DNA of 64,000 nucleotides from an uncultured archaeon. Its GTDB lineage: Archaea; Thermoproteota; Nitrososphaeria; Nitrososphaerales; Gagatemarchaeaceae. The position numbers and the translations under genes are program-made. The stretch lies in the NCBI GenBank assembly GCA_963817525.1, contig CAWFOU010000001.1:640001-704000 (forward strand), in the 5' to 3' direction. The notes beneath the pieces are model-generated. The model did not search any database, was not told the DNA's origin, and saw only the letters and a program-made list of their open reading frames with translations. Every line of letters starts with the position of its first letter. Within the stretch, counting starts at the first letter, position 1. Positions 935-53,157 of the stretch are shown here, piece after piece.

Positions 935-1603
935 ATGCCCATACTGACCCTCCGCGAAATCGGCAAAGAATACCCTGGAGAGAGGGTGGTCCTAAAAGGT
1001 GTCAACCTCGAGGTGCAGGCCGACGACTTCGTGGTCATCCGAGGGAGGTCGGGGATAGGCAAATCCACGCTCCTGAGGATCATGGGCCTTCTCGACGCGC
1101 CCACCTCAGGAAAGGTGCTGGTCGAAGGTCGCGACACCGGCGAGATGAAGGACCCTGAGCTATCAAGGATCAGGCTCACGACCTTCGGCTTCGTCTTTCA
1201 GCAGTTCAACCTGATCCCGAGCTTGACCAACGTCGAGAACGTGGAGCTGCCGATGCAGCTGGCCGGCCGCACGGGCGCGGATGACAGGCGGAAGAGGGCC
1301 CTCGCCCTCCTGCGCTCATTCGGCGTGGACGGCCTGGCCGCGAGATTTCCTGGCGAGGTCAGCGGGGGCGAGCAGCAGAGGGTCACCGTGGCGAGGGCGC
1401 TGGCGAACAGGCCTCAGCTAGTCCTCGCCGACGAGCCGACGGCCAGCCTCGACGAGGTCAACTCGGAGGCGATCCTCGGCCTCTTCAAGAAGATCAACGA
1501 GGAAAACCAAGTCGCGGTCGTGCTCACGACCACCAGCGACTCTGACAAGTTCCTGTCGACTCGCGAGCTGAGCATCAGCGATGGCACGCTACGCCAACTT
1601 TGA
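935..1603 (+). CDS. ABC transporter ATP-binding protein (LolD/MacB type)
   Basis: Walker A GRSGIGKST, signature VSGGEQQRV, Walker B VLADEPT; ATG at 935. Confidence 0.9.
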   Translation: MPILTLREIGKEYPGERVVLKGVNLEVQADDFVVIRGRSGIGKSTLLRIMGLLDAPTSGKVLVEGRDTGEMKDPELSRIRLTTFGFVFQQFNLIPSLTNVENVELPMQLAGRTGADDRRKRALALLRSFGVDGLAARFPGEVSGGEQQRVTVARALANRPQLVLADEPTASLDEVNSEAILGLFKKINEENQVAVVLTTTSDSDKFLSTRELSISDGTLRQL

Positions 1604-1753
1604 GGCGGATGTCGGACGCGCGCACGCCTCGACGCGCGTCTGCCCCACCCGGCCTGGGGTGAGCGCCCCATGTCAGACCCTCTCCGGCTTCATAATTGAT
1701 TTAACGGCGAGTAGACGAGTAGACACGAGCCAGGCATTGCCATCGATCAAGCC

Positions 1754-2335
1754 GTGTCCCCGCTCAGCAACAAGGGCGACACCCAGCGTGAAAGAGGTAG
1801 TGACGACTTGAGCCGTTCCCAAGCGAAGAGTCGGGCGCGGGGAGGCGCGGTCGTCTCAAAGGGCCCGGTCTTGCTCCTCCTGGCTTTCGTGGCCCTCAGC
1901 CTCTGCTCAAGGGCGGATGGCGCGGCGGCCATTACACAGACGCAGGTGTCGACCGCCAACAACGAAATCCAGTCCGCATTTGCGGCGGCGTACGGTGCGG
2001 AGAGGTCAGGCGGGAATGTCTCTTCGCTAGACGCGGAGCTGAACGGAGCGATACAAATGGTTCAGACGGCGGAGGCGGAGAACATGACCGATCCAGCCCA
2101 GGCCGCTGCCGACCTTCAGAACGCCACCACAGTCGCCCAGAGGGTGACAGCCGATTCTCCCTCGGTGGCGCAGGCGGGAAGCGCCGCCCGCCAGACGACC
2201 GAAGTCAGCTCGGTCAGCGCCGCTTTCGCTATCGTAGTGGTCGCGTCCCTGACATACGTTTTCGGAGCTCGGCTCTACAGGAAGGCTTGGCTTCGCCTTC
2301 ACAGAGAATACGTGGTGAGGCCCGCGAGTGGATAA
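1754..2335 (+). CDS. Membrane-anchored helical hypothetical protein
   Basis: Signal-like hydrophobic segment, Ala/Gln-rich helical region, C-terminal TM; overlaps next gene. Start uncertain. Confidence 0.6.
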   Translation: MSPLSNKGDTQRERGSDDLSRSQAKSRARGGAVVSKGPVLLLLAFVALSLCSRADGAAAITQTQVSTANNEIQSAFAAAYGAERSGGNVSSLDAELNGAIQMVQTAEAENMTDPAQAAADLQNATTVAQRVTADSPSVAQAGSAARQTTEVSSVSAAFAIVVVASLTYVFGARLYRKAWLRLHREYVVRPASG

Positions 2336-6350: not shown

Positions 6351-7396
6351 ACGTGGGCAGGCGGAATTTCGCCCGCACGTTGGCGGCCGCTGGAATAGTC
6401 GCGTTCCTCGCCTTCTTACTGCTCGTCGCATACGCTCCCGACGCGGTCCCGTACAGCCCCAACAACTATGGGTGGAATGGGATAGAGGGGGTCTCATCGG
6501 CTTACAACGTGGTCTTCGCAAGCTCGCTCGCATCCTTGCCGAGCGGACGGACCGTCCTGGTCGAGCTTCAGCCCACCACGAGCTTCAGCCCCAATGACGT
6601 GAAGGCGGTCGCCCGATACGTATCCGGCGGCGGAACCCTCCTGGTGGCGGACAGCTCGGGGGACGCCAATGGCCTTCTCCAGGGACTGGGGACCGGAATT
6701 ACCATCGAGGATCAGCTGGCGGTCAACGACCCCATCTACAATTGGAAGGCCCCCCAGCTCCCTGTAGCGCTGGCGATTCCGGGAAAGGCCTCGTCGTTCC
6801 CGTTCATGAAAGGAGTCCAGGAGATAGCCCTGAACGAGCCCAGCCCGTTGGGCTTGAGCCTCACGGAAAACAGCACCATCGCGATCACAAGCCCGATGAG
6901 CTTCGACGTGAACCGGACGGCCGAACAGACGGCCCTAGCAGCTTTAGGCGCCGCGCCTCCTGACGTCTCGACTGGCCAGTTTGCAATCGCAGCGGCGGAC
7001 AGGATGGGGAGCGGGACCATAGTCGTGGTCGGGGACTCGCAGCTACTGACGAACTCAGGTTGGAACGTCGCGGACAACAGGGTGTTGTTGAACAACCTCT
7101 TCGCGAACTCAACCGTGGTGATAGACGCCTCCCATTGGACGACCAGCCCCCTCACCAGTTCGACGGCCCAGCTGAAGGGTCACCTCTCCCAGGCATACCA
7201 GACGGCGTCAGCTTCGCCCATGAGGTACATCCTGACGGCCGGGTTCGTCGCGGTGAGCATCGCGCTCGTGCCTGAGGACGAGAAGAGACAGATGGAGGAG
7301 CCCGCGAAAATAGAAGAAGGCTCTACAAGCTTTAACAGGGAAGCCATGGATCGAGTAAGAAAGGACAGAGAGAGATATGCCGGGAAGCATGAGTAG
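6347..7396 (+). CDS. DUF4350-like protein
   Basis: YSPNNYGWNG, YVSGGGTLLVAD and GSGTIVVVGDSQLLTN motifs; directly upstream of MoxR. Confidence 0.75.
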   Translation: MNVGRRNFARTLAAAGIVAFLAFLLLVAYAPDAVPYSPNNYGWNGIEGVSSAYNVVFASSLASLPSGRTVLVELQPTTSFSPNDVKAVARYVSGGGTLLVADSSGDANGLLQGLGTGITIEDQLAVNDPIYNWKAPQLPVALAIPGKASSFPFMKGVQEIALNEPSPLGLSLTENSTIAITSPMSFDVNRTAEQTALAALGAAPPDVSTGQFAIAAADRMGSGTIVVVGDSQLLTNSGWNVADNRVLLNNLFANSTVVIDASHWTTSPLTSSTAQLKGHLSQAYQTASASPMRYILTAGFVAVSIALVPEDEKRQMEEPAKIEEGSTSFNREAMDRVRKDRERYAGKHE

Positions 7397-36464: not shown

Positions 36465-36538
36465 TGGGTCAGGGGAGGTTTGAACTCCCGATTTCCGCCG
36501 TGTGAGAGCGGCGTCCTACCAGGCTAGACCACTGACCC
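36465..36538 (-). tRNA. tRNA-Val(CAC), intron-less, CCA not encoded
   Basis: Minus strand GGGTCAG-TG-GTCTAGCCTGGTAGGAC-G-CCGCT-CTCACAC-GGCGG-AAATC-GGGAG-TTCAAAC-CTCCC-CTGACCC-A folds as a cloverleaf; TTAAAA box at 36561-36566. Confidence 0.95.
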
Positions 36539-47765: not shown

Positions 47766-48473
47766 GTGACGAGCAGGGACACCGTGCGCGTCGCGTTCAT
47801 CTCTGACGTCCACTCGAACCTCGAGGCTCTCGAGGCCGTCCTCGACGACGTCGGGAATCTCAAGGTCTTCTGCGCAGGGGACATCGTGGGGTACGGGGCA
47901 TCCCCCAACGAGGTCGTGCGCATCCTGCGGGGCGTCGGCGCCACATGTGTGCTGGGCAACCATGACCGCGCCGCTCTCGATGGGGACGCCGGAGAATTCA
48001 ACCCCAGGGCGGCGGTAGCGGCGATGTGGACCTCGCGGCAGCTCACCGACGAGAGCAGGGAGTTCCTCGGCGCGCTCCCCACCCGTGTCACCACGCTGGT
48101 CGGGGGGAAGACGGTCTACATGACCCACGGCTCGCCCGACGACCCGATGTGGGAGTACGTCCGCCCGTCGACCCACTCTGATCTGTTCGACTACTACCTC
48201 GAGAAGGTCCACGCCGACGTGATGGCGCTCGGACACACCCACCTCGCGTTCCAATGGAGGAGCGAGTCGGGCGGGGTGGTGTTCAACCCGGGCTCGGTGG
48301 GACAGCCCCGCAACGGGGACAGGAGGGCGGCCTTCGCGATCCTGAGCGTCGAAGGAGAGGATGTGTTGGTCGAGCCCAGGCTAGTAGAGTACGATGTCGA
48401 GAGGGCCGCGAAGAAGATAATAGAGTCAGGCCTTCCGTCGTCGCTTGCGACCCAGCTTTCCTCCGGCGAGTAG
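47766..48473 (+). CDS. Metallophosphoesterase (YfcE/calcineurin-like)
   Basis: SDVHSN, GDIVGYG, GNHD, HGSP, GHTH, NPGSVGQPR. Confidence 0.92.
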   Translation: MTSRDTVRVAFISDVHSNLEALEAVLDDVGNLKVFCAGDIVGYGASPNEVVRILRGVGATCVLGNHDRAALDGDAGEFNPRAAVAAMWTSRQLTDESREFLGALPTRVTTLVGGKTVYMTHGSPDDPMWEYVRPSTHSDLFDYYLEKVHADVMALGHTHLAFQWRSESGGVVFNPGSVGQPRNGDRRAAFAILSVEGEDVLVEPRLVEYDVERAAKKIIESGLPSSLATQLSSGE

Positions 48474-51400
48474 GCCGCGGGACACGTCGATGTAGATCGG
48501 GTTCCCGTCGAGCTCGTCCTCCTCCCACTCGCCGTCGGCGGTCTTGTCGGGGAGGACCTCGACCTCCTTCACGCGGACGAGGAAGGCGAGGTGCTTCCTC
48601 AGCGGAGCCAGCATCGACACGGTCTCGCCGTCCAGGCCCGCCACCCGCGCCATTGCGAGGACGGCCGCGGGCGGGTAGCCCCGCTTCTTCCTTAGGGCCT
48701 GGAGCCTCCTCGCGACGTCCCTCTCCACCCCCTCGGCCATCAGCTTGTCGTCCCTGACCTTCTCGATCGCGACGATGGTCTCCCCCCTCGCTGCGGCCTC
48801 CCAGTCCCCGGTCCCCCGGAAGTTGAACTCCATCGCTGAGACCGGGACATCGACCTTGTCCCCCTTCGAGGTGGTGAGCTTGATGGGAGAGCCGCTGCGG
48901 TAGGTCTCCCACGCCGCGTCCCCCTCGAGCACCTTGAGGCTCGTGAGGACGTCGTTGGTCTTCTCCTTGAAGTGGGCGCCGATCTTCGACCTGTTCGGGG
49001 TGAGCGTCACCGAGACCGGGAGCGTGGACACCTTCGTCGCGAACGAGACCTTCTTCACGTTGCAAAGGAGTGAGATGAGCTTCTGGGCCCGCTTCATCTT
49101 CGCCGCCTTCTCCGGGGGGACATAGACCGCCATGCTCCGGAGCGGCCACCGCCTCTTCAGCTTGGCCTTCTCCCTCGCGGAGTTGCAGGCGCCCTCCACC
49201 ATCAGCGCGAACTCCACTGCCTCGCTCTCGGCCTTCGCCGACTTTTTGAGCGCGAGCTTGGGCATGTCCTGGAGCAGGAGGGGCTGCTCCCATGGGCCTG
49301 CCGCGAGCACCTCCTGGTGGAGGTACTCTGTGAGGTAGGGAGAGACCGGGTGGAGGAGCATGTCCAGCGTGGAAAGGGAGTGGCCGAGGACGGCGAATAT
49401 CGCGAGCCTCCTCTCCTTCTCCTTGGGGGTGTCGTTCCAGAGCTCGTTCCTCACCATCCGCACGTATCCCTGGCTCAGGACCTCGACTATCTGGTGCTCG
49501 AGCTCCCTGCACGCCTCGTTGTACCTCCCCGTCCCGTACGCCTTCCGGACGGAGTCGACGGCCTGCTGGAGGTTGTAGAGCATCCAGAGGTCCACCTGCG
49601 CGAGGAGCTTCCTGGACGCGGCACGCTTCACGGTGTGCTTGACCGGGTCGAACCCGTCCTGTTCCCCGTTCTGCTTGAGGTAGACGTGCAGGTGGTAGAG
49701 GGTGTTCAGGACCTGGTAGGGCCTCCCCGTCATCTCCTTCAAGTCCATGCTGAGCGCGTCGATCGGCGAGCTCTTCCACATGAGGTAGTACCTGAGGAGG
49801 TCTACGGAGCTCCCGTTGAGTATCTCGAGCGCGTCGAGCACGTTCCCCAGGCTCTTGCTCATCTTGCGCCCCTTCTCGTCGAGGACGTGGCCCTGGAAGA
49901 GGAACGCCTTGTAGGGGGCGACGGGCTTCCCCTGGTAGACGACGTTCAGGACCAGGAGGGTGTAGGCCCAGCCCCGGGTCTGGTCGATCCCCTCGGTCAG
50001 GTGCTGGACGGGGACGAGGGCGTTCCTCTCCGCGTCGGTGAAGGCTGCCAGCGGGGCGGATCCGCTGTTGTGCCAGGTGTCCAGCACGAAGGGCTCCCTC
50101 CTACAGTCCCCGCCGCACTTCGGGCACCTTAGGACTACCCTGTCTATCCACGGTCTGTGAAGCTCGAAATCCTTCCCGTCGGGGAGCTCCTTCGCCTTTT
50201 CCACGATGCTCCGGCGGGAGAAAGCCGGGACCTTCTCCTTGCAGTCGGCGCAGACCCAGATAGGAAGGGGCGTCCCCCAGACCCTCTCCCTCGAGATGCA
50301 CCAGGGGGGCGACTGCTTGAGGAACTCGAGGAACCTGTTCCTAGGCTGTTCGAAGTAGTACTCCACCTTCTCGGCTGCCTCCACGAGCCTGTCCTTCACC
50401 CGGTCGATCCAATAGAAGTATTCGCGCCGTGCCACCCAGACCAGGCGGTGGCCCGAGCGCCAGCAGGTCGGGTATTCGTGCTCGATCCTCCCCTCGTTCA
50501 CGAGGTTGCCCGTCTCGGTGAGGAGCTTCGAGACGAGGCTGTCCGCGTCCCGGACGAAGAGGCCCACGAACCTCCCCGAGTCCTCCGTGAAGCGCACCCT
50601 GTCGTCGATCGGCGCGAAGACTGGCACCTTCCTCCTCGTCGCCACCTGGAAGTCCTCCTCTCCGTTCGCCGGCGATAGGTGGACCAGGCCCGTCCCGGTC
50701 CCCGTGTCCACGAAGTCCTCGGCGACGACTTTGTGGATGCTCCCCTGGGCCTGGAGCCTCTCGAGGCCGGGTATCATCTTGAGGAGGGGGTGCTCGTAGG
50801 TTAGGCCATCGAGGTCCCTCCCCTTGACCACCTTGGTCGTCTCTCCGAACTCCAGGCCGAGCTCCTTGGCCAGGGCGAACTTCCTTTCCTCCCCGACGAC
50901 CCACGTCTCTCCCCCGACCTTCACGTAGGCGTAGCTGGCGTCAGGCTTGACCCCCACGAGCTCGTCGGTCACGACGGTGAAGGGCATAGTGGTCCATATC
51001 ACGAGGAAGCTGCCATCCGAGGCCTTGACCTTGTAGTATAGGCTGGGGTCTTCGAGGGTCTCGTAGCCGAGGACAGCCTCGGCGTGGCTCAGCGAGGTCA
51101 TGCAGCTAGGGCAGTAGGGCACCACCTTGTACCCCTCGCCCAGTATCCCCTTCTCCCAGGCCCGCTCGAGGAACTTCCACTCGCGCTCGATGTAGCCGTC
51201 TCGGTAGGTCATGTAGGCCCTGGAGTGGTCGAGGAGGAGGCCCAGGAGGTCGTCGGACTCCTCCCAGGACTGGAGGTACTTGCTAAGGAGGCGCTTGCAC
51301 GCCTCGACCAGCTTCTCCTCGCCGATCTGCTTGAGGTCCTCCCACTTGTTGCCCGAGAGCCCCAGCTCCTTCTCGGCCTGAAGCTCGACCGGTAGTCCCT

Positions 51401-51701
51401 GGCAGTCCCAGCCCGCCCGGAAGACCACGTTCTCCTTGAGGAGGAGGGTGCTGTATCGATACCAGAGGTCCTTCATTATCCTGCCGCGTATGTGCCCGAT
51501 GTGGGGGACGCCGTTGAGGGTGGGCGGGCCTTCCACATACCCGACCGCCTTGGTCTTGCCCATCGACTTTGAGACCAGGTTGGGGAGGTCGGCCTTCTTC
51601 GTGAATCGCCTGACCCTTGGCTCTACCACCTTCCAGTCGTAGACGGTGGAAAACTGTTGATCGCTAGGCGTTGGCTCACTGGGCACGGATTTGATATTCA
51701 C
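48426..51701 (-). CDS. ileS: Isoleucyl-tRNA synthetase, archaeal/eukaryotic type
   Basis: PHIGH, GWDCQGLPVE, WTTMPFT, GTGLVH, EGIDQTRGW, KMSKS. Confidence 0.95.
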   Translation of the reverse strand: MNIKSVPSEPTPSDQQFSTVYDWKVVEPRVRRFTKKADLPNLVSKSMGKTKAVGYVEGPPTLNGVPHIGHIRGRIMKDLWYRYSTLLLKENVVFRAGWDCQGLPVELQAEKELGLSGNKWEDLKQIGEEKLVEACKRLLSKYLQSWEESDDLLGLLLDHSRAYMTYRDGYIEREWKFLERAWEKGILGEGYKVVPYCPSCMTSLSHAEAVLGYETLEDPSLYYKVKASDGSFLVIWTTMPFTVVTDELVGVKPDASYAYVKVGGETWVVGEERKFALAKELGLEFGETTKVVKGRDLDGLTYEHPLLKMIPGLERLQAQGSIHKVVAEDFVDTGTGTGLVHLSPANGEEDFQVATRRKVPVFAPIDDRVRFTEDSGRFVGLFVRDADSLVSKLLTETGNLVNEGRIEHEYPTCWRSGHRLVWVARREYFYWIDRVKDRLVEAAEKVEYYFEQPRNRFLEFLKQSPPWCISRERVWGTPLPIWVCADCKEKVPAFSRRSIVEKAKELPDGKDFELHRPWIDRVVLRCPKCGGDCRREPFVLDTWHNSGSAPLAAFTDAERNALVPVQHLTEGIDQTRGWAYTLLVLNVVYQGKPVAPYKAFLFQGHVLDEKGRKMSKSLGNVLDALEILNGSSVDLLRYYLMWKSSPIDALSMDLKEMTGRPYQVLNTLYHLHVYLKQNGEQDGFDPVKHTVKRAASRKLLAQVDLWMLYNLQQAVDSVRKAYGTGRYNEACRELEHQIVEVLSQGYVRMVRNELWNDTPKEKERRLAIFAVLGHSLSTLDMLLHPVSPYLTEYLHQEVLAAGPWEQPLLLQDMPKLALKKSAKAESEAVEFALMVEGACNSAREKAKLKRRWPLRSMAVYVPPEKAAKMKRAQKLISLLCNVKKVSFATKVSTLPVSVTLTPNRSKIGAHFKEKTNDVLTSLKVLEGDAAWETYRSGSPIKLTTSKGDKVDVPVSAMEFNFRGTGDWEAAARGETIVAIEKVRDDKLMAEGVERDVARRLQALRKKRGYPPAAVLAMARVAGLDGETVSMLAPLRKHLAFLVRVKEVEVLPDKTADGEWEEDELDGNPIYIDVSRGLLAGGKLGRKRRRKA

Positions 51702-51743
51702 TCATGCGCTTGCCGCACTTGCCACGGACGAAATCGATTTTAA

Positions 51744-52143
51744 CATTTCCGAGCGTGAAATCCCAGGTGCTTCAGCCCCGGGATGAGAGAACCATGGGGG
51801 CTCTTATACAATCCACTCATCAGTGTCTCTGACCTATGGTAGGGCATACCAAAAGGAACACGCTTCCTCGCGAGAGCGAGCCTGTGGTGGGCGCGACGCC
51901 GCAGGGCGACGCCCGACAGGCAGACACGACGGCCTCTTCAGCCGCGCCAAAAGGAGCAGCGGTGGAAAGCCGCATTGATGAAGGAAGAACTTCAGCCCCT
52001 GACAACGGAGCAGCTTCCATACAAAACGCCCAGAGGGTCGCGCGCACGCGCGCGCCTCGGCTAAAAATCGCTACGACCACGAGACCTGTAGCGGGAGAAG
52101 AAGAGCATGGAAGCCCACGGCTTCAGCCGTGGGATGATGTCAC
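51744..52143 (+). mobile_element. Non-autonomous IS200/IS605-family element (400 bp, no tnpA or tnpB)
   Basis: Left hairpin AAAT-CCCAGGTGC-TTCA-GCCCCGGGAT with TTAA 15 nt upstream; right end GAAG-CCCACGGC-TTCA-GCCGTGGG-ATGATG-TCAC; no terminal inverted repeats or target duplication. Confidence 0.8.
51838..52143 (+). ncRNA. TnpB omegaRNA/reRNA-like structured RNA with extra hairpins
   Basis: GGTA-GGGCA-TACC 5' hairpin; ACG-CTTCC...GATGAA-GGAAG-AA stem; CGGC...GCCG inner stem; tetraloop hairpins; TTATA at 51804-51808. Confidence 0.6.
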
Positions 52144-52158
52144 AATCCTTCGCCCCGC

Positions 52159-53157
52159 CTAGGTGTCGCCCCGGTAGTCGGAGAGCTCCGCCTGGTACCC
52201 GTCGAGCGGCTTGGCGTCGAACCCCTCTCCCCGGAGGGTCCTCGCGAACTCGCTGGTGAAGCCGTGGGTGGTGTAGACCATCTCCGGCGAGACCTCCTTC
52301 ACCAGCCGGAGGAGCTCAAGGTAGTCGCAGTGGTCGCTGAGAGGGAAGGAGTAGTCTGCCCCGAGGAAGCTCCCGTACCCCCGCTCGATCGCCCACCCGC
52401 TGAAGGCCGCGAGCACCGCACCGTACTCCTTCTTGAGCCTGGCTGCGAGCTTGTTCCTCGAGCTCATCATCGGGGTGACCATCACCCACGGGCCCTGGGG
52501 GAGACCCTCGAGAGTCCGGGCGATGGTCTTGGCCTCCCTGAGAGGGACGCCGGACGCCCTGTAGATCTCGTTCATCTGCCCGACCGATTCGTGGACGAAG
52601 AACGGGTTCCACGAGGAGAAGAGGTATGAGAGGACCTGCGACTTGCCAAGCGGATATCCCATGAGCACCACAGGCCTCCCCTTGTCGAAGGTGTGTGAGA
52701 TCATCTCGTTCACGAGCTTGACCGTCTGGTCGAGAGGCGGGAAGACGTAGCGCGGGTCGCCGAAGGTCGTCTCCGTTATCAGTATCCTCGCCTTCTTCGT
52801 CCTGCACCTGCTCATGAAGGCCCTGTCCCTCCCCGCCGCGTCTCCGGTGTAGAGCAGCTCGTCGTGGATGTGCAGCGCCCTCGCGCCCAGGATGTGCCCC
52901 GAGTCGAGCAGCGAGACGCCCTCCGGCGGGTCGTGCACGTTCGAGCCCAGCTCCACACCCCTGGCGCGGGCGAGGACGGCGGTCTCCTTGGACGCGAGGA
53001 CCTTGGACTTTGGGTGCGGCTTCTCCACGTGGTCCATGTGGGCGTGGGAGACGAAGGTGTAGTCTGACTTGACCGACGCCTTGGGGTCGAGCGCGTACCT
53101 CGTGGCGCCCTGCTCCACTATGATGCCCGCCCCGAGTGATACGCGTGTCTTGCTCAA
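52159..53157 (-). CDS. Metallo-beta-lactamase fold nuclease (beta-CASP-like)
   Basis: SHAHMDH, SGHILG, YTGD, ETTFG, LSDHCD, THG. Confidence 0.85.
   Translation of the reverse strand: MSKTRVSLGAGIIVEQGATRYALDPKASVKSDYTFVSHAHMDHVEKPHPKSKVLASKETAVLARARGVELGSNVHDPPEGVSLLDSGHILGARALHIHDELLYTGDAAGRDRAFMSRCRTKKARILITETTFGDPRYVFPPLDQTVKLVNEMISHTFDKGRPVVLMGYPLGKSQVLSYLFSSWNPFFVHESVGQMNEIYRASGVPLREAKTIARTLEGLPQGPWVMVTPMMSSRNKLAARLKKEYGAVLAAFSGWAIERGYGSFLGADYSFPLSDHCDYLELLRLVKEVSPEMVYTTHGFTSEFARTLRGEGFDAKPLDGYQAELSDYRGDT

What the first reader, a model, noticed from the sequence alone, without database searches (positions are those of the whole stretch)
51744..52143. Protein-free IS200/IS605-type element that appears to be a promoter plus an enlarged TnpB guide-RNA scaffold
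Seen: two subterminal hairpins with the same GC-TTCA-GC apex. AAAT lies just 5' of the left hairpin with TTAA about 15 nt further upstream; GAAG lies just 5' of the right hairpin with TCAC at the end. Known: in ISHp608 guide AAAG specifies TTAC and GAAT specifies TCAA, so AAAT/TTAA and GAAG/TCAC follow the same rule at similar spacing, which sets the ends at 51744 and 52143. Inside there is no tnpA or tnpB, but there is a TTATA box (51804) about 30 nt before a structured region: hairpin GGTA-GGGCA-TACC whose loop GGGC could pair with GCCC at 52113, a CTTCC/GGAAG stem after ACG, and added hairpins (CTC-GCGA-GAG; GCCTGT..GGGCG..CGCC-GCAG-GGCG..CGCCC..ACAGGC). Inference: a stand-alone, expressed omegaRNA element that borrows TnpA and TnpB in trans; its guide would be the flank AATCCTTCGCCCCGCC, targeting the element-free allele next to a TTTAA TAM. 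The added domains could mark an undescribed RNA class.
Basis: partly seen in the sequence, partly recalled or inferred. Interest (0 to 1): 0.85.

Follow-up and report, generated by a model that had tools for sequence, protein, structure and literature searches.

The report
Protein-free IS200/IS605 mini-transposon (PATE)

Summary
Window 51744..52143 is a discrete 400-bp insertion. Six of seven aligned same-genus genomes read ...TTTTAA|AATCCTTC... at this spot (the seventh reads TTCTTAA|ATCCTTC). The window genome carries the element exactly between those halves, with no target duplication.

Its left and right ends match a 1,368-bp tnpB-only IS605-type element on the same contig. That element is also inserted after TTTAA. 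Hairpins, guide tetranucleotides and spacings fit the IS608 layout. It is therefore a PATE, a protein-free IS200/IS605 element.

The TATA-like box aligns with the tnpB promoter of related left ends. The "enlarged omegaRNA scaffold" is not supported. A covariance model of 18 family scaffolds scores 150-158 bits on true copies and 38.4 bits here, with only the last ~38 nt aligning convincingly.

The ~255-290-nt core is an orphan: no second copy turned up in 96 family genomes. The 108-aa frame looks non-coding. No Y1 TnpA was found in this genome. Expression could not be tested.

The same archaeal family does hold compact tnpB-less "left end + TATA + canonical scaffold" PATEs, one of them in this genome. 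This is a new member of a known kind.

The parts
51739..51743 (+). TTTAA target / transposon-adjacent motif in the left flank. It is not part of the element.
   Evidence: The empty sites in relatives end the left half with TTTTAA. The tnpB-bearing sister element is also inserted after ATTTAA.
51744..52143 (+). The whole 400-bp protein-free IS200/IS605-type element (PATE).
   Evidence: It is a precise insertion relative to 7 same-genus genomes, with no target-site duplication. Its ends match those of the tnpB element at G000:C1:316452-317819.
51744..51795 (+). Left end: terminal segment, guide tetranucleotide AAAT (51758-61) and subterminal imperfect palindrome 51762-51782.
   Evidence: 81% identity over 53 nt to the left end of the tnpB element. 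Alignment A2 with four related left ends. The cleavage site lies 18 nt 5' of the hairpin foot, against 19 nt in IS608 (passage of PMC3201880).
51796..51811 (+). GGGGGCTCTTATACAA: a TATA-like box homologous to the tnpB promoter region of related left ends. Function as a promoter is inferred.
   Evidence: It aligns with CTTTTATACGA, CTTAAATATGG and CTTAAGTAT of related elements, which lie about 25-30 nt before the tnpB start or before the scaffold.
51836..51852 (+). ATGGTAGGGCATACCA: possible vestige of the scaffold's 5' end (GGTAGGGCA equals scaffold positions 1-9), folded here as a small hairpin.
   Evidence: It is a 9-mer identical to the nearly invariant scaffold start (A1). It sits at the same place after the TATA box as in the compact PATEs. 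On its own it is not above chance.
51853..52105 (+). Orphan GC-rich core with several hairpins and two extra copies of the hairpin-loop motif CTTCAGCC (51936, 51990). Function unknown; not the family scaffold.
   Evidence: No match in the own genome or in 96 family genomes, except 56 nt at 77% identity to one orphan intergenic locus in G025. CM and HMM searches are negative. Motif count.
52106..52143 (+). Right end: guide GAAG (52110-13), perfect 8-bp hairpin 52114-52133, tail ATGATG and cleavage site TCAC (52140-43). It equals the last ~38 positions of the family's omegaRNA scaffold.
   Evidence: nhmmer reports 24 bits, E 2.5e-9, model positions 116-153. The CM gives a local 23 bits on the hairpin. 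Identity is 89% to the own-genome right ends and 94% to one in G036. TCAC ends 10 nt 3' of the hairpin foot, as in IS608.
52144..52159 (+). Right flank AATCCTTCGCCCCGCC: the sequence an omegaRNA transcribed across this right end would carry as guide. It overlaps the stop codon of the MBL-fold gene on the other strand.
   Evidence: Position only. The empty-site alleles read TTTAA followed by AATCCTTC....
51836..52162 (+). 108-aa open frame, judged non-coding.
   Evidence: GC3 is 0.57 against 0.92 in the flanking host genes, and there is no codon-usage signal in any frame. No Pfam family. No relative among 5.8 billion protein clusters at lengths of 59-189 aa.

Best explanation
Window 51744..52143 is a non-autonomous, protein-free member of the IS200/IS605 family. 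Such elements are called palindrome-associated transposable elements (PATEs).

Shown:
- It entered the IleRS-MBL spacer 3' of TTTAA by the scarless single-strand 'peel and paste' route typical of this family.
- It keeps the parts a Y1 TnpA needs: left and right subterminal hairpins, the tetranucleotides 5' of each hairpin foot (AAAT, GAAG), and the matching cleavage sites (TTAA in the flank, TCAC at the end).
- It shares these ends, and the TTTAA target, with an intact tnpB-only element on the same contig.

Inferred:
- It descends from the compact 'left end + tnpB promoter + omegaRNA scaffold + right end' PATEs that occur in this archaeal family.
- Its scaffold core has been lost or replaced by about 255-290 nt of orphan, hairpin-rich sequence.
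- What remains of the guide RNA is the last ~38 nt (the right-end hairpin and tail) and perhaps the first 9-15 nt.
- A + strand transcript from the left-end TATA box is possible. By analogy with ISDra2 it would lack most of the scaffold that TnpB binds, so it probably does not guide TnpB.
- The element is probably immobile now, because no Y1 TnpA gene was found in this genome.
For: Insertion and ends
- Six of the 7 same-genus genomes aligned read TTTTAA|AATCCTTC; G014 reads TTCTTAA|ATCCTTC. The element sits exactly at the bar.
- The ends match the tnpB element at G000:C1:316452-317819: left end 53 nt at 81% identity, right end 37 nt at 89%.
- That element's own empty site is ATTTAA|GCGGAGTC in 7 of the 7 relatives examined.
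- Its TnpB is full length, carries the three Pfam TnpB domains, matches ISDra2 TnpB (8bf8, E 1.8e-45), and shows GVDLG, FEDL and RDHNAA motifs.
- The left-end motif GAAAnCCC...GGGrTGA occurs exactly twice in the 2.82-Mb genome: here and at that element.
- Spacings are 18 nt (left cleavage site to hairpin foot) and 10 nt (right foot to end), against 19 and 10 in IS608 (passages of PMC3201880).
- Across related elements the tetranucleotide 5' of the left hairpin changes together with the flanking target. AAAT pairs with TTAA (window, sister element). AAAA pairs with TTAT (G009 L056, G000 C7 PATE; CTAT in G009 L039). AAAG pairs with TTAC (G025 L055, G034 L049, G036 L048). This was read off. Only the first two elements and the C7 PATE have boundaries checked against empty sites.

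Core is not the scaffold
- CM R1 was built from 18 scaffolds with 32 pairs, 14 of them with compensatory changes.
- It scores 149.5-158.5 bits on four own-genome copies (all four are in its training alignment A1), 64.9 on the scaffold of a TnpB only 42% identical, 59.6-75.1 on truncated copies, 27 on a solo right end, and 38.4 on the window.
- nhmmer with filters off aligns only 52106-52143.
- Shared 7- to 10-mers are at shuffle level.

Non-coding and orphan.

No Y1 TnpA: 0 matches in G000, which is 95% complete. 8 of 96 other family genomes have one.

Promoter homology: alignment A2.
Against: - The layout after the TATA box is the same as in the compact scaffold-bearing PATEs. The 9-mer GGTAGGGCA, the nearly invariant start of the scaffold, sits there.
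- Short scaffold words occur in the same order as in the scaffold: AGCCTGTGG, GGCCTCT, GACAACGG. A colinear chaining test is marginally above shuffles at k = 6 (70 against 57.8 +/- 6.9, 13 of 300 shuffles as high). It is not above shuffles at k = 7 (p 0.10) or k = 8 (p 0.32).
- The RNA folds better than shuffles (z -2.84), but so does the opposite strand (z -2.97).
- A covariance model penalises large insertions. A scaffold interrupted by several 20-60-nt inserts would therefore be under-scored.
- With a single copy, structure conservation cannot be tested in either direction.
- How much scaffold this clade's TnpB needs is inferred from ISDra2, not measured (passages of PMC10097598).
- Absence of tnpA rests on a 95%-complete, 8.75%-contaminated assembly.
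Confidence: 0.78

Rival explanations
1. The element is a stand-alone omegaRNA gene transcribed from the left-end TATA box. Its scaffold is enlarged by added domains but still binds the sister TnpB, which then cuts element-free TTTAA+AATCCTTC... alleles and restores the element by homing.
For: - The TAM and target are correct, and an intact TnpB with the same TTTAA target is on the same contig.
- The TATA box is homologous to tnpB promoters.
- GGTAGGGCA sits at the scaffold-start position, and the last 38 nt of the scaffold are intact.
- The colinear-anchor signal is marginal.
- There is no oligo-T run on the + strand inside the element.
- Compact promoter+scaffold PATEs really exist in this family: 4 of the 18 full-length scaffolds aligned.
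- PATEs with omegaRNAs are reported in print (PMC10055086 passage).
Against: - The CM scores 38.4 bits against about 150 for true scaffolds and 64.9 for a distant one. About 100 conserved scaffold positions have no counterpart.
- In ISDra2 the 116-nt scaffold with four stems and a pseudoknot is what TnpB binds.
- The element is single copy, so there is no covariation to examine.
Confidence: 0.12
2. The core is an unrelated functional cargo or regulatory insert. One option is a small RNA driven by the left-end promoter and running antisense into the 3' end of the MBL-fold gene. Another is a minus-strand terminator/promoter module acting between the MBL-fold gene and IleRS.
For: - The element splits a TTTTAAAA box that lies about 36 nt upstream of the IleRS start on the minus strand, and leaves TTAAAA in place.
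- The minus strand of the core carries a T5 run (complement of 52062-52066) about 95 nt after the MBL stop.
- Both strands fold better than shuffles.
- A 56-nt stretch is shared, as a reciprocal unique hit, with one other orphan intergenic segment that ends in TCAC.
Against: - There is no conservation beyond that 56 nt, no Rfam family and no second copy.
- Closest relatives manage with a 60-80-bp spacer.
- All functional statements here rest on sequence alone.
Confidence: 0.06
3. The 108-aa frame 51836..52162 is a real, leaderless-translated small protein carried by the element.
For: - Its ATG lies where the tnpB start lies in related elements, about 30-35 nt after the TATA box.
- The frame is open through the whole element.
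Against: - GC3 is 0.57 against 0.92 in host genes and 0.77 in tnpB. The codon-usage score is negative in all three frames.
- No Pfam hit.
- No relative in the 5.8-billion-cluster protein collection at 59-189 aa.
- The opposite strand also has an 86-aa open frame, as expected in 66% GC DNA.
Confidence: 0.02

Closest known systems
PATEs (palindrome-associated transposable elements) of haloarchaea, Dyall-Smith et al. 2011 (PMC3119063; passages read)
   Same: Too short to encode a transposase. No terminal inverted repeats, near-terminal palindromes like those of IS605-type transposons, and no target duplication. Some arise from IS1341-type (tnpB-only) elements by core deletion. Cores can be heterogeneous while the ends are conserved. 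They are mobilised although intact tnpA is scarce.
   Different: The host here sits in a GTDB family that includes a MAG titled 'Thaumarchaeota archaeon', not a haloarchaeon. The element is single copy, not a multi-copy family. Tables S8/S9 of that paper (element sequences) were not seen.
omegaRNA-encoding PATEs of Geobacillus stearothermophilus, Meers et al. 2023 preprint (PMC10055086; passages read)
   Same: These are protein-free IS200/IS605 elements with conserved left and right ends. They would need TnpA, and TnpB for their omegaRNA, in trans. The paper states that PATEs 'often encode omegaRNAs'.
   Different: The window element lacks a recognisable scaffold apart from its last ~38 nt. 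The true counterparts in this lineage are the compact 258-259-bp PATEs at G000:C7:1211912-1212169 and G009 L056:1495-1753. Extended Data Fig. 2e was not seen.
IS608 (Helicobacter pylori) and ISDra2 (Deinococcus radiodurans), the IS200/IS605 paradigms (PMC3201880 and PMC10097598; passages read)
   Same: Subterminal hairpins, with a 4-nt guide 5' of each hairpin foot. The left cleavage site is in the flank about 19 nt upstream (18 here). The right cleavage site is 10 nt downstream of the foot (10 here). Insertion is 3' of a fixed short target without duplication. The sister TnpB is a full-length homologue of ISDra2 TnpB.
   Different: No tnpA or tnpB inside. The target is TTTAA rather than TTAC or TTGAT. 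The host is archaeal, with a TATA-type promoter.
IS1341-type (tnpB-only) IS605-family elements
   Same: The sister element G000:C1:316452-317819 is of this type. It supplies the matching ends and the only TnpB in the genome with the same TTTAA target.
   Different: The window element has no tnpB. Its right end is closer to one in another genus (94%, G036) than to the sister's (89%). It is therefore not a simple recent deletion derivative of that copy.

Membership tests
IS200/IS605 family, non-autonomous (PATE) | Subterminal imperfect palindromes at both ends, alike in direct orientation; no terminal inverted repeats. | tested here: met
   Hairpins at 51762-51782 and 52114-52133. The ends are 80.6% alike over 36 nt in direct orientation.
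IS200/IS605 family, non-autonomous (PATE) | Insertion 3' of a short fixed target with no target-site duplication; scarless empty site. | tested here: met
   TTTTAA|AATCCTTC in 6 of the 7 aligned same-genus genomes (TTCTTAA|ATCCTTC in G014), with the element exactly at the bar in G000.
IS200/IS605 family, non-autonomous (PATE) | Cleavage sites recognised by 4-nt guides 5' of each hairpin foot, with the left site about 19 nt upstream and the right site 10 nt downstream. | tested here: met
   AAAT/TTAA at 18 nt and GAAG/TCAC at 10 nt. The distances match the PMC3201880 passages. The left guide's 4th base covaries with the target's 4th base across about 8 related elements. Only three of those boundaries were verified by empty sites. 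Base pairing itself is not testable here.
IS200/IS605 family, non-autonomous (PATE) | Ends homologous to those of a transposase- or tnpB-bearing element. | tested here: met
   Own-genome tnpB element (E 3.3e-7 and 1.4e-5). Matches to the element in 9 other genomes of the 60 relatives searched (E <= 0.01), all but two short ones falling on the left- or right-end segment.
IS200/IS605 family, non-autonomous (PATE) | No protein-coding capacity. | tested here: met
   No Pfam hit, no codon bias, and no homologue of the only long frame.
IS200/IS605 family, non-autonomous (PATE) | A Y1 TnpA available in trans. | tested here: not met
   PF01797 gives 0 matches in G000, which is 95% complete. It is found in 8 of 96 other family genomes, including 1 of 22 in the genus, where the match is partial. 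This bears on present mobility, not on what the element is.
TnpB omegaRNA (scaffold of this archaeal clade) | Sequence and secondary structure of the clade's ~150-nt scaffold. | tested here: not met
   CM R1 scores 38.4 bits against 149.5-158.5 for true copies (members of the training alignment) and 64.9 for a distant one. Only model positions ~116-153 align.
TnpB omegaRNA (scaffold of this archaeal clade) | Scaffold abuts the right end, so that the flank supplies the guide next to a TAM-bearing empty site. | tested here: met
   By position only: right end at 52143, flank AATCCTTCGCCCCGCC, empty site TTTAA+AATCCTTC.
TnpB omegaRNA (scaffold of this archaeal clade) | Core stems and the pseudoknot that TnpB binds (ISDra2: four stems plus a pseudoknot using -5 to -3). 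| tested here: inconclusive
   The 3' strand (GUC at -5 to -3) is present. Possible partners are too many to be informative. A single sequence gives no covariation.
TnpB omegaRNA (scaffold of this archaeal clade) | Transcribed, processed and bound by TnpB. | not testable with these tools
   No RNA data were at hand (see Tried and rejected). Rfam holds no model that recognises even the true scaffolds of this clade.

The most novel reading that the evidence does not exclude
The 290-nt core is a working, much enlarged omegaRNA scaffold. The canonical 5' start, some colinear motifs and the 3' hairpin are kept, and the parts are separated by inserted domains. It is transcribed from the retained tnpB promoter and used in trans by the sister TnpB to home the element back into TTTAA+AATCCTTC alleles. 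That would show that TnpB scaffolds tolerate large insertions and that guide-only transposons can evolve new RNA domains.
Probability: 0.1. Interest if true: 0.65.

Novelty: new member of a known kind. Interest (0 to 1): 0.3.

Why it matters
As it stands this is a routine annotation: one more PATE, now with base-exact boundaries, in an uncultured soil/peat archaeon.

Three points give it modest value.
- It shows, with empty-site alleles, that both a tnpB-only element and a gene-less relative inserted after TTTAA in one lineage, in a genome where no TnpA gene is found. This is the same puzzle noted for haloarchaeal PATEs.
- The surrounding survey shows that this archaeal family holds compact ~260-bp 'left end + TATA box + canonical omegaRNA scaffold' transposons. 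These are natural guide-only elements with their own archaeal promoter. They are better candidates than the window element for testing TnpB action in trans.
- The targets (TTTAA, TTTAT) fall inside TATA-like boxes of host genes (IleRS here). Insertions of this family may therefore often touch archaeal promoters.

If the orphan core did turn out to be a functional scaffold, it would bear on how much extra RNA TnpB tolerates.

Tried and rejected
Rfam
- The region at E <= 1 and the whole window at gathering thresholds gave nothing relevant. The only hit was Acido-Lenti-1 on the minus strand at 24.1 bits against a gathering score of 37. It is the right-end hairpin read backwards.
- Rfam also finds nothing in the true tnpB element, so this blank says little.
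- tRNA scan: only tRNA-Val at 36465-36538.

Search for other copies of the core
- Own genome.
- 60 relatives.
- All 96 other family genomes.
- A 28-letter IUPAC pattern in the same 97 genomes: 2 hits, G000 and G025.
- A 26-letter pattern in genome contigs: 1 record, the G025 locus.
- The same pattern in metagenome contigs: 2 records, both the same G025 locus in other strains.
- These pattern scans need exact matches, so diverged copies would be missed.

Other negative or inconclusive tests
- Protein search with the 108-aa frame: 14 candidates, none at E <= 0.01, lengths 59-189 aa only.
- k-mer sharing and colinear chaining of the core against the scaffold alignment: at chance and marginal respectively.
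- Interior repeats: a 25-nt direct repeat (76% identity, E 0.03) and two extra CTTCAGCC motifs. The alignment with the real ends shows no hairpin arms, so 'decayed internal ends' stays a guess.
- More distant same-genus genomes have 226-807-bp IleRS-MBL spacers with open frames of 75-268 aa and no similarity to the element or to TnpB. They were left out of the empty-site alignment (10 loci). G009 has an 83-bp spacer that was not aligned. For G020, G005 and G004 no IleRS match was found in the locus fetched (the G020 and G004 loci are cut short by contig ends).

Sequencing runs
- No RNA holder was listed. Four DNA runs of one study hold the stretch.
- Laying their contigs showed the element in place, with no joint across it. 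Contigs drop rare variants, so this says nothing on excision.

Tables S8/S9 of PMC3119063 and the extended data of PMC10055086 may bear on how common orphan cores are.
- The sigma-70 promoter/terminator scan was not used because the host is archaeal.
Full report
WHAT IS THERE

The finding lies in the 457-bp spacer between two minus-strand genes. One is an isoleucyl-tRNA-synthetase-like gene (48426..51701). The other is a metallo-beta-lactamase-fold gene (52159..53157; weak RMMBL match). The window is G000:C1:640001-704000 of a 2.82-Mb, 15-contig assembly that is 95% complete and 8.75% contaminated. A relative in the same GTDB family is a record titled 'MAG: Thaumarchaeota archaeon'. The host is therefore an archaeon, and a TATA-type promoter is the relevant kind.

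THE ENDS ARE EXACT

I looked for the same gene pair in the genus. The MBL-fold gene is found in 22 of 23 genomes. In the seven closest that carry both genes on one locus (G017, G006, G012, G018, G014, G008, G022) the spacer is about 60-80 bp. It reads ...CGATTTTAA|AATCCTTC... in six of them. G014 reads TTCTTAA|ATCCTTC.

G000 has 51744..52143 inserted precisely at the bar, with no duplicated target. G009 also has a short (83-bp) spacer that I did not align. Ten more distant genomes have 226-807-bp spacers holding other open frames. These show no likeness to the element or to TnpB, and I left them out. Contigs of four DNA runs from one study bridge both junctions. They may be the source sample, so they show only that the junctions are real.

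WHAT FAMILY

A search of the element against its own genome hits two places 1.3 kb apart on the same contig, one with its left end and one with its right end. Between them lies a 438-aa frame with OrfB_IS605, the Cas12f1-like TNB domain and the HTH_OrfB domain. It matches ISDra2 TnpB over its full length (8bf8, E 1.8e-45). The RuvC-type motifs are visible in the alignment.

That element (G000:C1:316452-317819) is itself an insertion after ATTTAA. Seven of the seven relatives examined read ATTTAA|GCGGAGTC. The left-end motif occurs exactly twice in the genome: there and in the window.

The geometry fits IS608. The guide tetranucleotides lie directly 5' of each hairpin foot. The left cleavage site is in the flank 18 nt upstream (19 in IS608). 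The right cleavage site ends 10 nt downstream (10 in IS608) (passages of PMC3201880).

Reading related left ends, the fourth guide base and the fourth target base change together:
- AAAT with TTAA (window, sister element);
- AAAA with TTAT (G009 L056, the G000 C7 element; CTAT in G009 L039);
- AAAG with TTAC (G025 L055, G034 L049, G036 L048).

Only three of these boundaries are confirmed by empty sites. The rest I placed by spacing.

The element is thus a protein-free IS200/IS605 element. This class was named PATE in haloarchaea (passages of PMC3119063).

IS THE INTERIOR A GUIDE-RNA SCAFFOLD?

The 3' end of the sister tnpB plus its right end has close copies at three more places in G000 and many in relatives. 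I aligned 18 full-length copies (A1). RNAalifold gives 32 pairs, 14 of them with compensatory changes. I built covariance model R1 from this alignment. R1 scores are:
- 149.5-158.5 bits on four own-genome copies (all four are members of the training alignment A1);
- 64.9 bits on the scaffold of a TnpB only 42% identical;
- 59.6-75.1 bits on two truncated copies;
- 27 bits on a solo right end;
- 38.4 bits on the window with filters off.

In the window alignment, 61 model positions of the central junction are replaced by 19 nt. Only the last ~45 nt align convincingly. The hairpin alone gives 23 bits. nhmmer without filters aligns only 52106-52143.

Words of 7-10 nt shared between 51830-52104 and the scaffolds are as frequent in dinucleotide shuffles.

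Some scaffold words do occur in scaffold order: GGTAGGGCA, AGCCTGTGG, GGCCTCT, GACAACGG. I therefore wrote a colinear chaining test. It is marginal at k = 6 (p 0.043) and not significant at k = 7 or 8 (p 0.10, 0.32).

In ISDra2 the bound scaffold is 116 nt with four stems and a pseudoknot formed by positions -5 to -3 (passages of PMC10097598). The window keeps only the equivalent of the last stem and tail. I conclude that an enlarged scaffold is not supported. A single sequence cannot exclude it.

THE PROMOTER

The box GGGGGCTCTTATACAA (51796-51811) aligns with the TATA-like boxes of related left ends. Those boxes lie 25-30 nt before the tnpB start codon. Whether it fires is unknown.

THE CONCEPT EXISTS NEXT DOOR

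Of the 18 full-length scaffolds, 7 follow an uninterrupted tnpB and 5 follow a tnpB broken into pieces. Four have no tnpB at all. In those four a left-end hairpin and a TATA-like box lie directly upstream of the scaffold:
- G009 L056:1495-1753 (259 bp);
- G025 L055;
- G034 L049;
- G000:C7:1211912-1212169 (258 bp; R1 150.9 bits).

The remaining two (G029 L041, G025 L060) lie on contig ends too short to judge.

The G000:C7 element is inserted at CCCTTAT|ACGAG relative to five relatives. These are natural guide-only transposons. They match the statement that PATEs 'often encode omegaRNAs' that TnpB must act on in trans (passage of PMC10055086). The window element has the same front half, but a different middle replaces the scaffold.

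THE CORE

Positions ~51853-52105 have no match in G000, in 60 relatives, or in the 96 other family genomes. The one exception is 56 nt at 77% identity to an orphan intergenic segment in G025. That segment ends in TCAC and is itself single copy, and the hit is reciprocal and unique. The genome and metagenome pattern scans found only that same locus.

The core holds two extra copies of the hairpin-loop word CTTCAGCC. Four of the nine occurrences in the 64-kb window lie in these 400 bp, all on the + strand, against 3.2 expected for the whole window. Without hairpin arms their meaning is unclear.

Both strands fold better than shuffles to the same degree (z -2.84 and -2.97). This fits DNA-level palindromes as well as it fits an RNA.

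The 108-aa frame is not coding by composition: GC3 is 0.57 against 0.92 in host genes. It has no relatives.

MOBILITY

No Y1 transposase (PF01797) is found in G000. Eight of 96 other family genomes have one, including one partial match among the 22 other genomes of the genus. Both G000 insertions are absent from the closest relatives, so a TnpA acted in this lineage after they diverged. It is now either lost, unassembled, or was supplied by a passing element.

VERDICT

The element is a PATE of a tnpB-only IS605-type family. The promoter reading is plausible. The 'enlarged omegaRNA scaffold / new RNA class' reading is not supported and cannot be tested further with one copy. This is a new member of a known kind, of modest interest.

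Noticed in passing
G000:C7:1211912-1212169 (L026:3913-4170): A 258-bp tnpB-less element with a left-end hairpin, a TATA-like box (CTAAATAT) and a complete canonical omegaRNA scaffold (R1 150.9 bits). It is inserted at CCCTTAT|ACGAG relative to five same-genus genomes, inside a TATA-like box upstream of an alcohol-dehydrogenase-like gene. About 240 bp of further unexplained sequence lies between it and that gene.
   Followed up: partly
G009 L056:1495-1753; G025 L055 (about 1502-1780, minus strand); G034 L049 (about 1288-1560, minus strand): Compact guide-only PATEs (left end + TATA box + a few tnpB codons + canonical scaffold + right end) recur in at least four genomes of this archaeal family. 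The G025 and G034 copies share the same deletion junction (…GGAACTACACGTAGGGCAGG).
   Followed up: partly
G000:C1:316452-317819 (L025:1953-3320): An intact 1,368-bp tnpB-only IS605-type element is inserted after ATTTAA and is absent from 7 same-genus genomes. Its TnpB is a full-length homologue of ISDra2 TnpB. G000 holds at least five further tnpB copies at 38-70% identity and three more distant ones.
   Followed up: partly
window 51737-51744 (minus strand, upstream of IleRS start at 51701): The insertion target TTTTAA|AA is a palindromic TATA-like box about 36 nt upstream of the IleRS start. After insertion TTAAAA remains in place and the element's left terminus supplies the upstream bases. 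Targets of this element family (TTTAA, TTTAT) resemble archaeal TATA boxes.
   Followed up: no
G025:C104:1966-2188 (= L101:1966-2188, minus strand; also L102, L103): An orphan ~225-bp intergenic segment ends in ...GTGTCTCAC and shares 56 nt (77%) with window 51980-52035. Three strain variants show a small hairpin with a two-sided change (GCG/CGC to GTG/CAC). It may be the right end of another element family.
   Followed up: partly
window 51770, 51936, 51990, 52121: The 8-mer CTTCAGCC, the loop and 3' shoulder of both terminal hairpins, occurs four times on the + strand within the 400-bp element. The two interior copies sit in a 25-nt direct repeat 54 nt apart.
   Followed up: partly
window 6566-6590: Two further CTTCAGCC copies lie 17 nt apart (GAGCTTCAGCCC ACCAC GAGCTTCAGCCC). 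This looks like a short tandem repeat, probably inside a coding region.
   Followed up: no
L026:4873-6501 (G000:C7, about 1212872-1214500): By eye, a P-loop protein (GPVG...SGKT) looks interrupted by an intein-like insert (C...THN|S junctions with a homing-endonuclease-sized middle). This was not tested with any tool.
   Followed up: no
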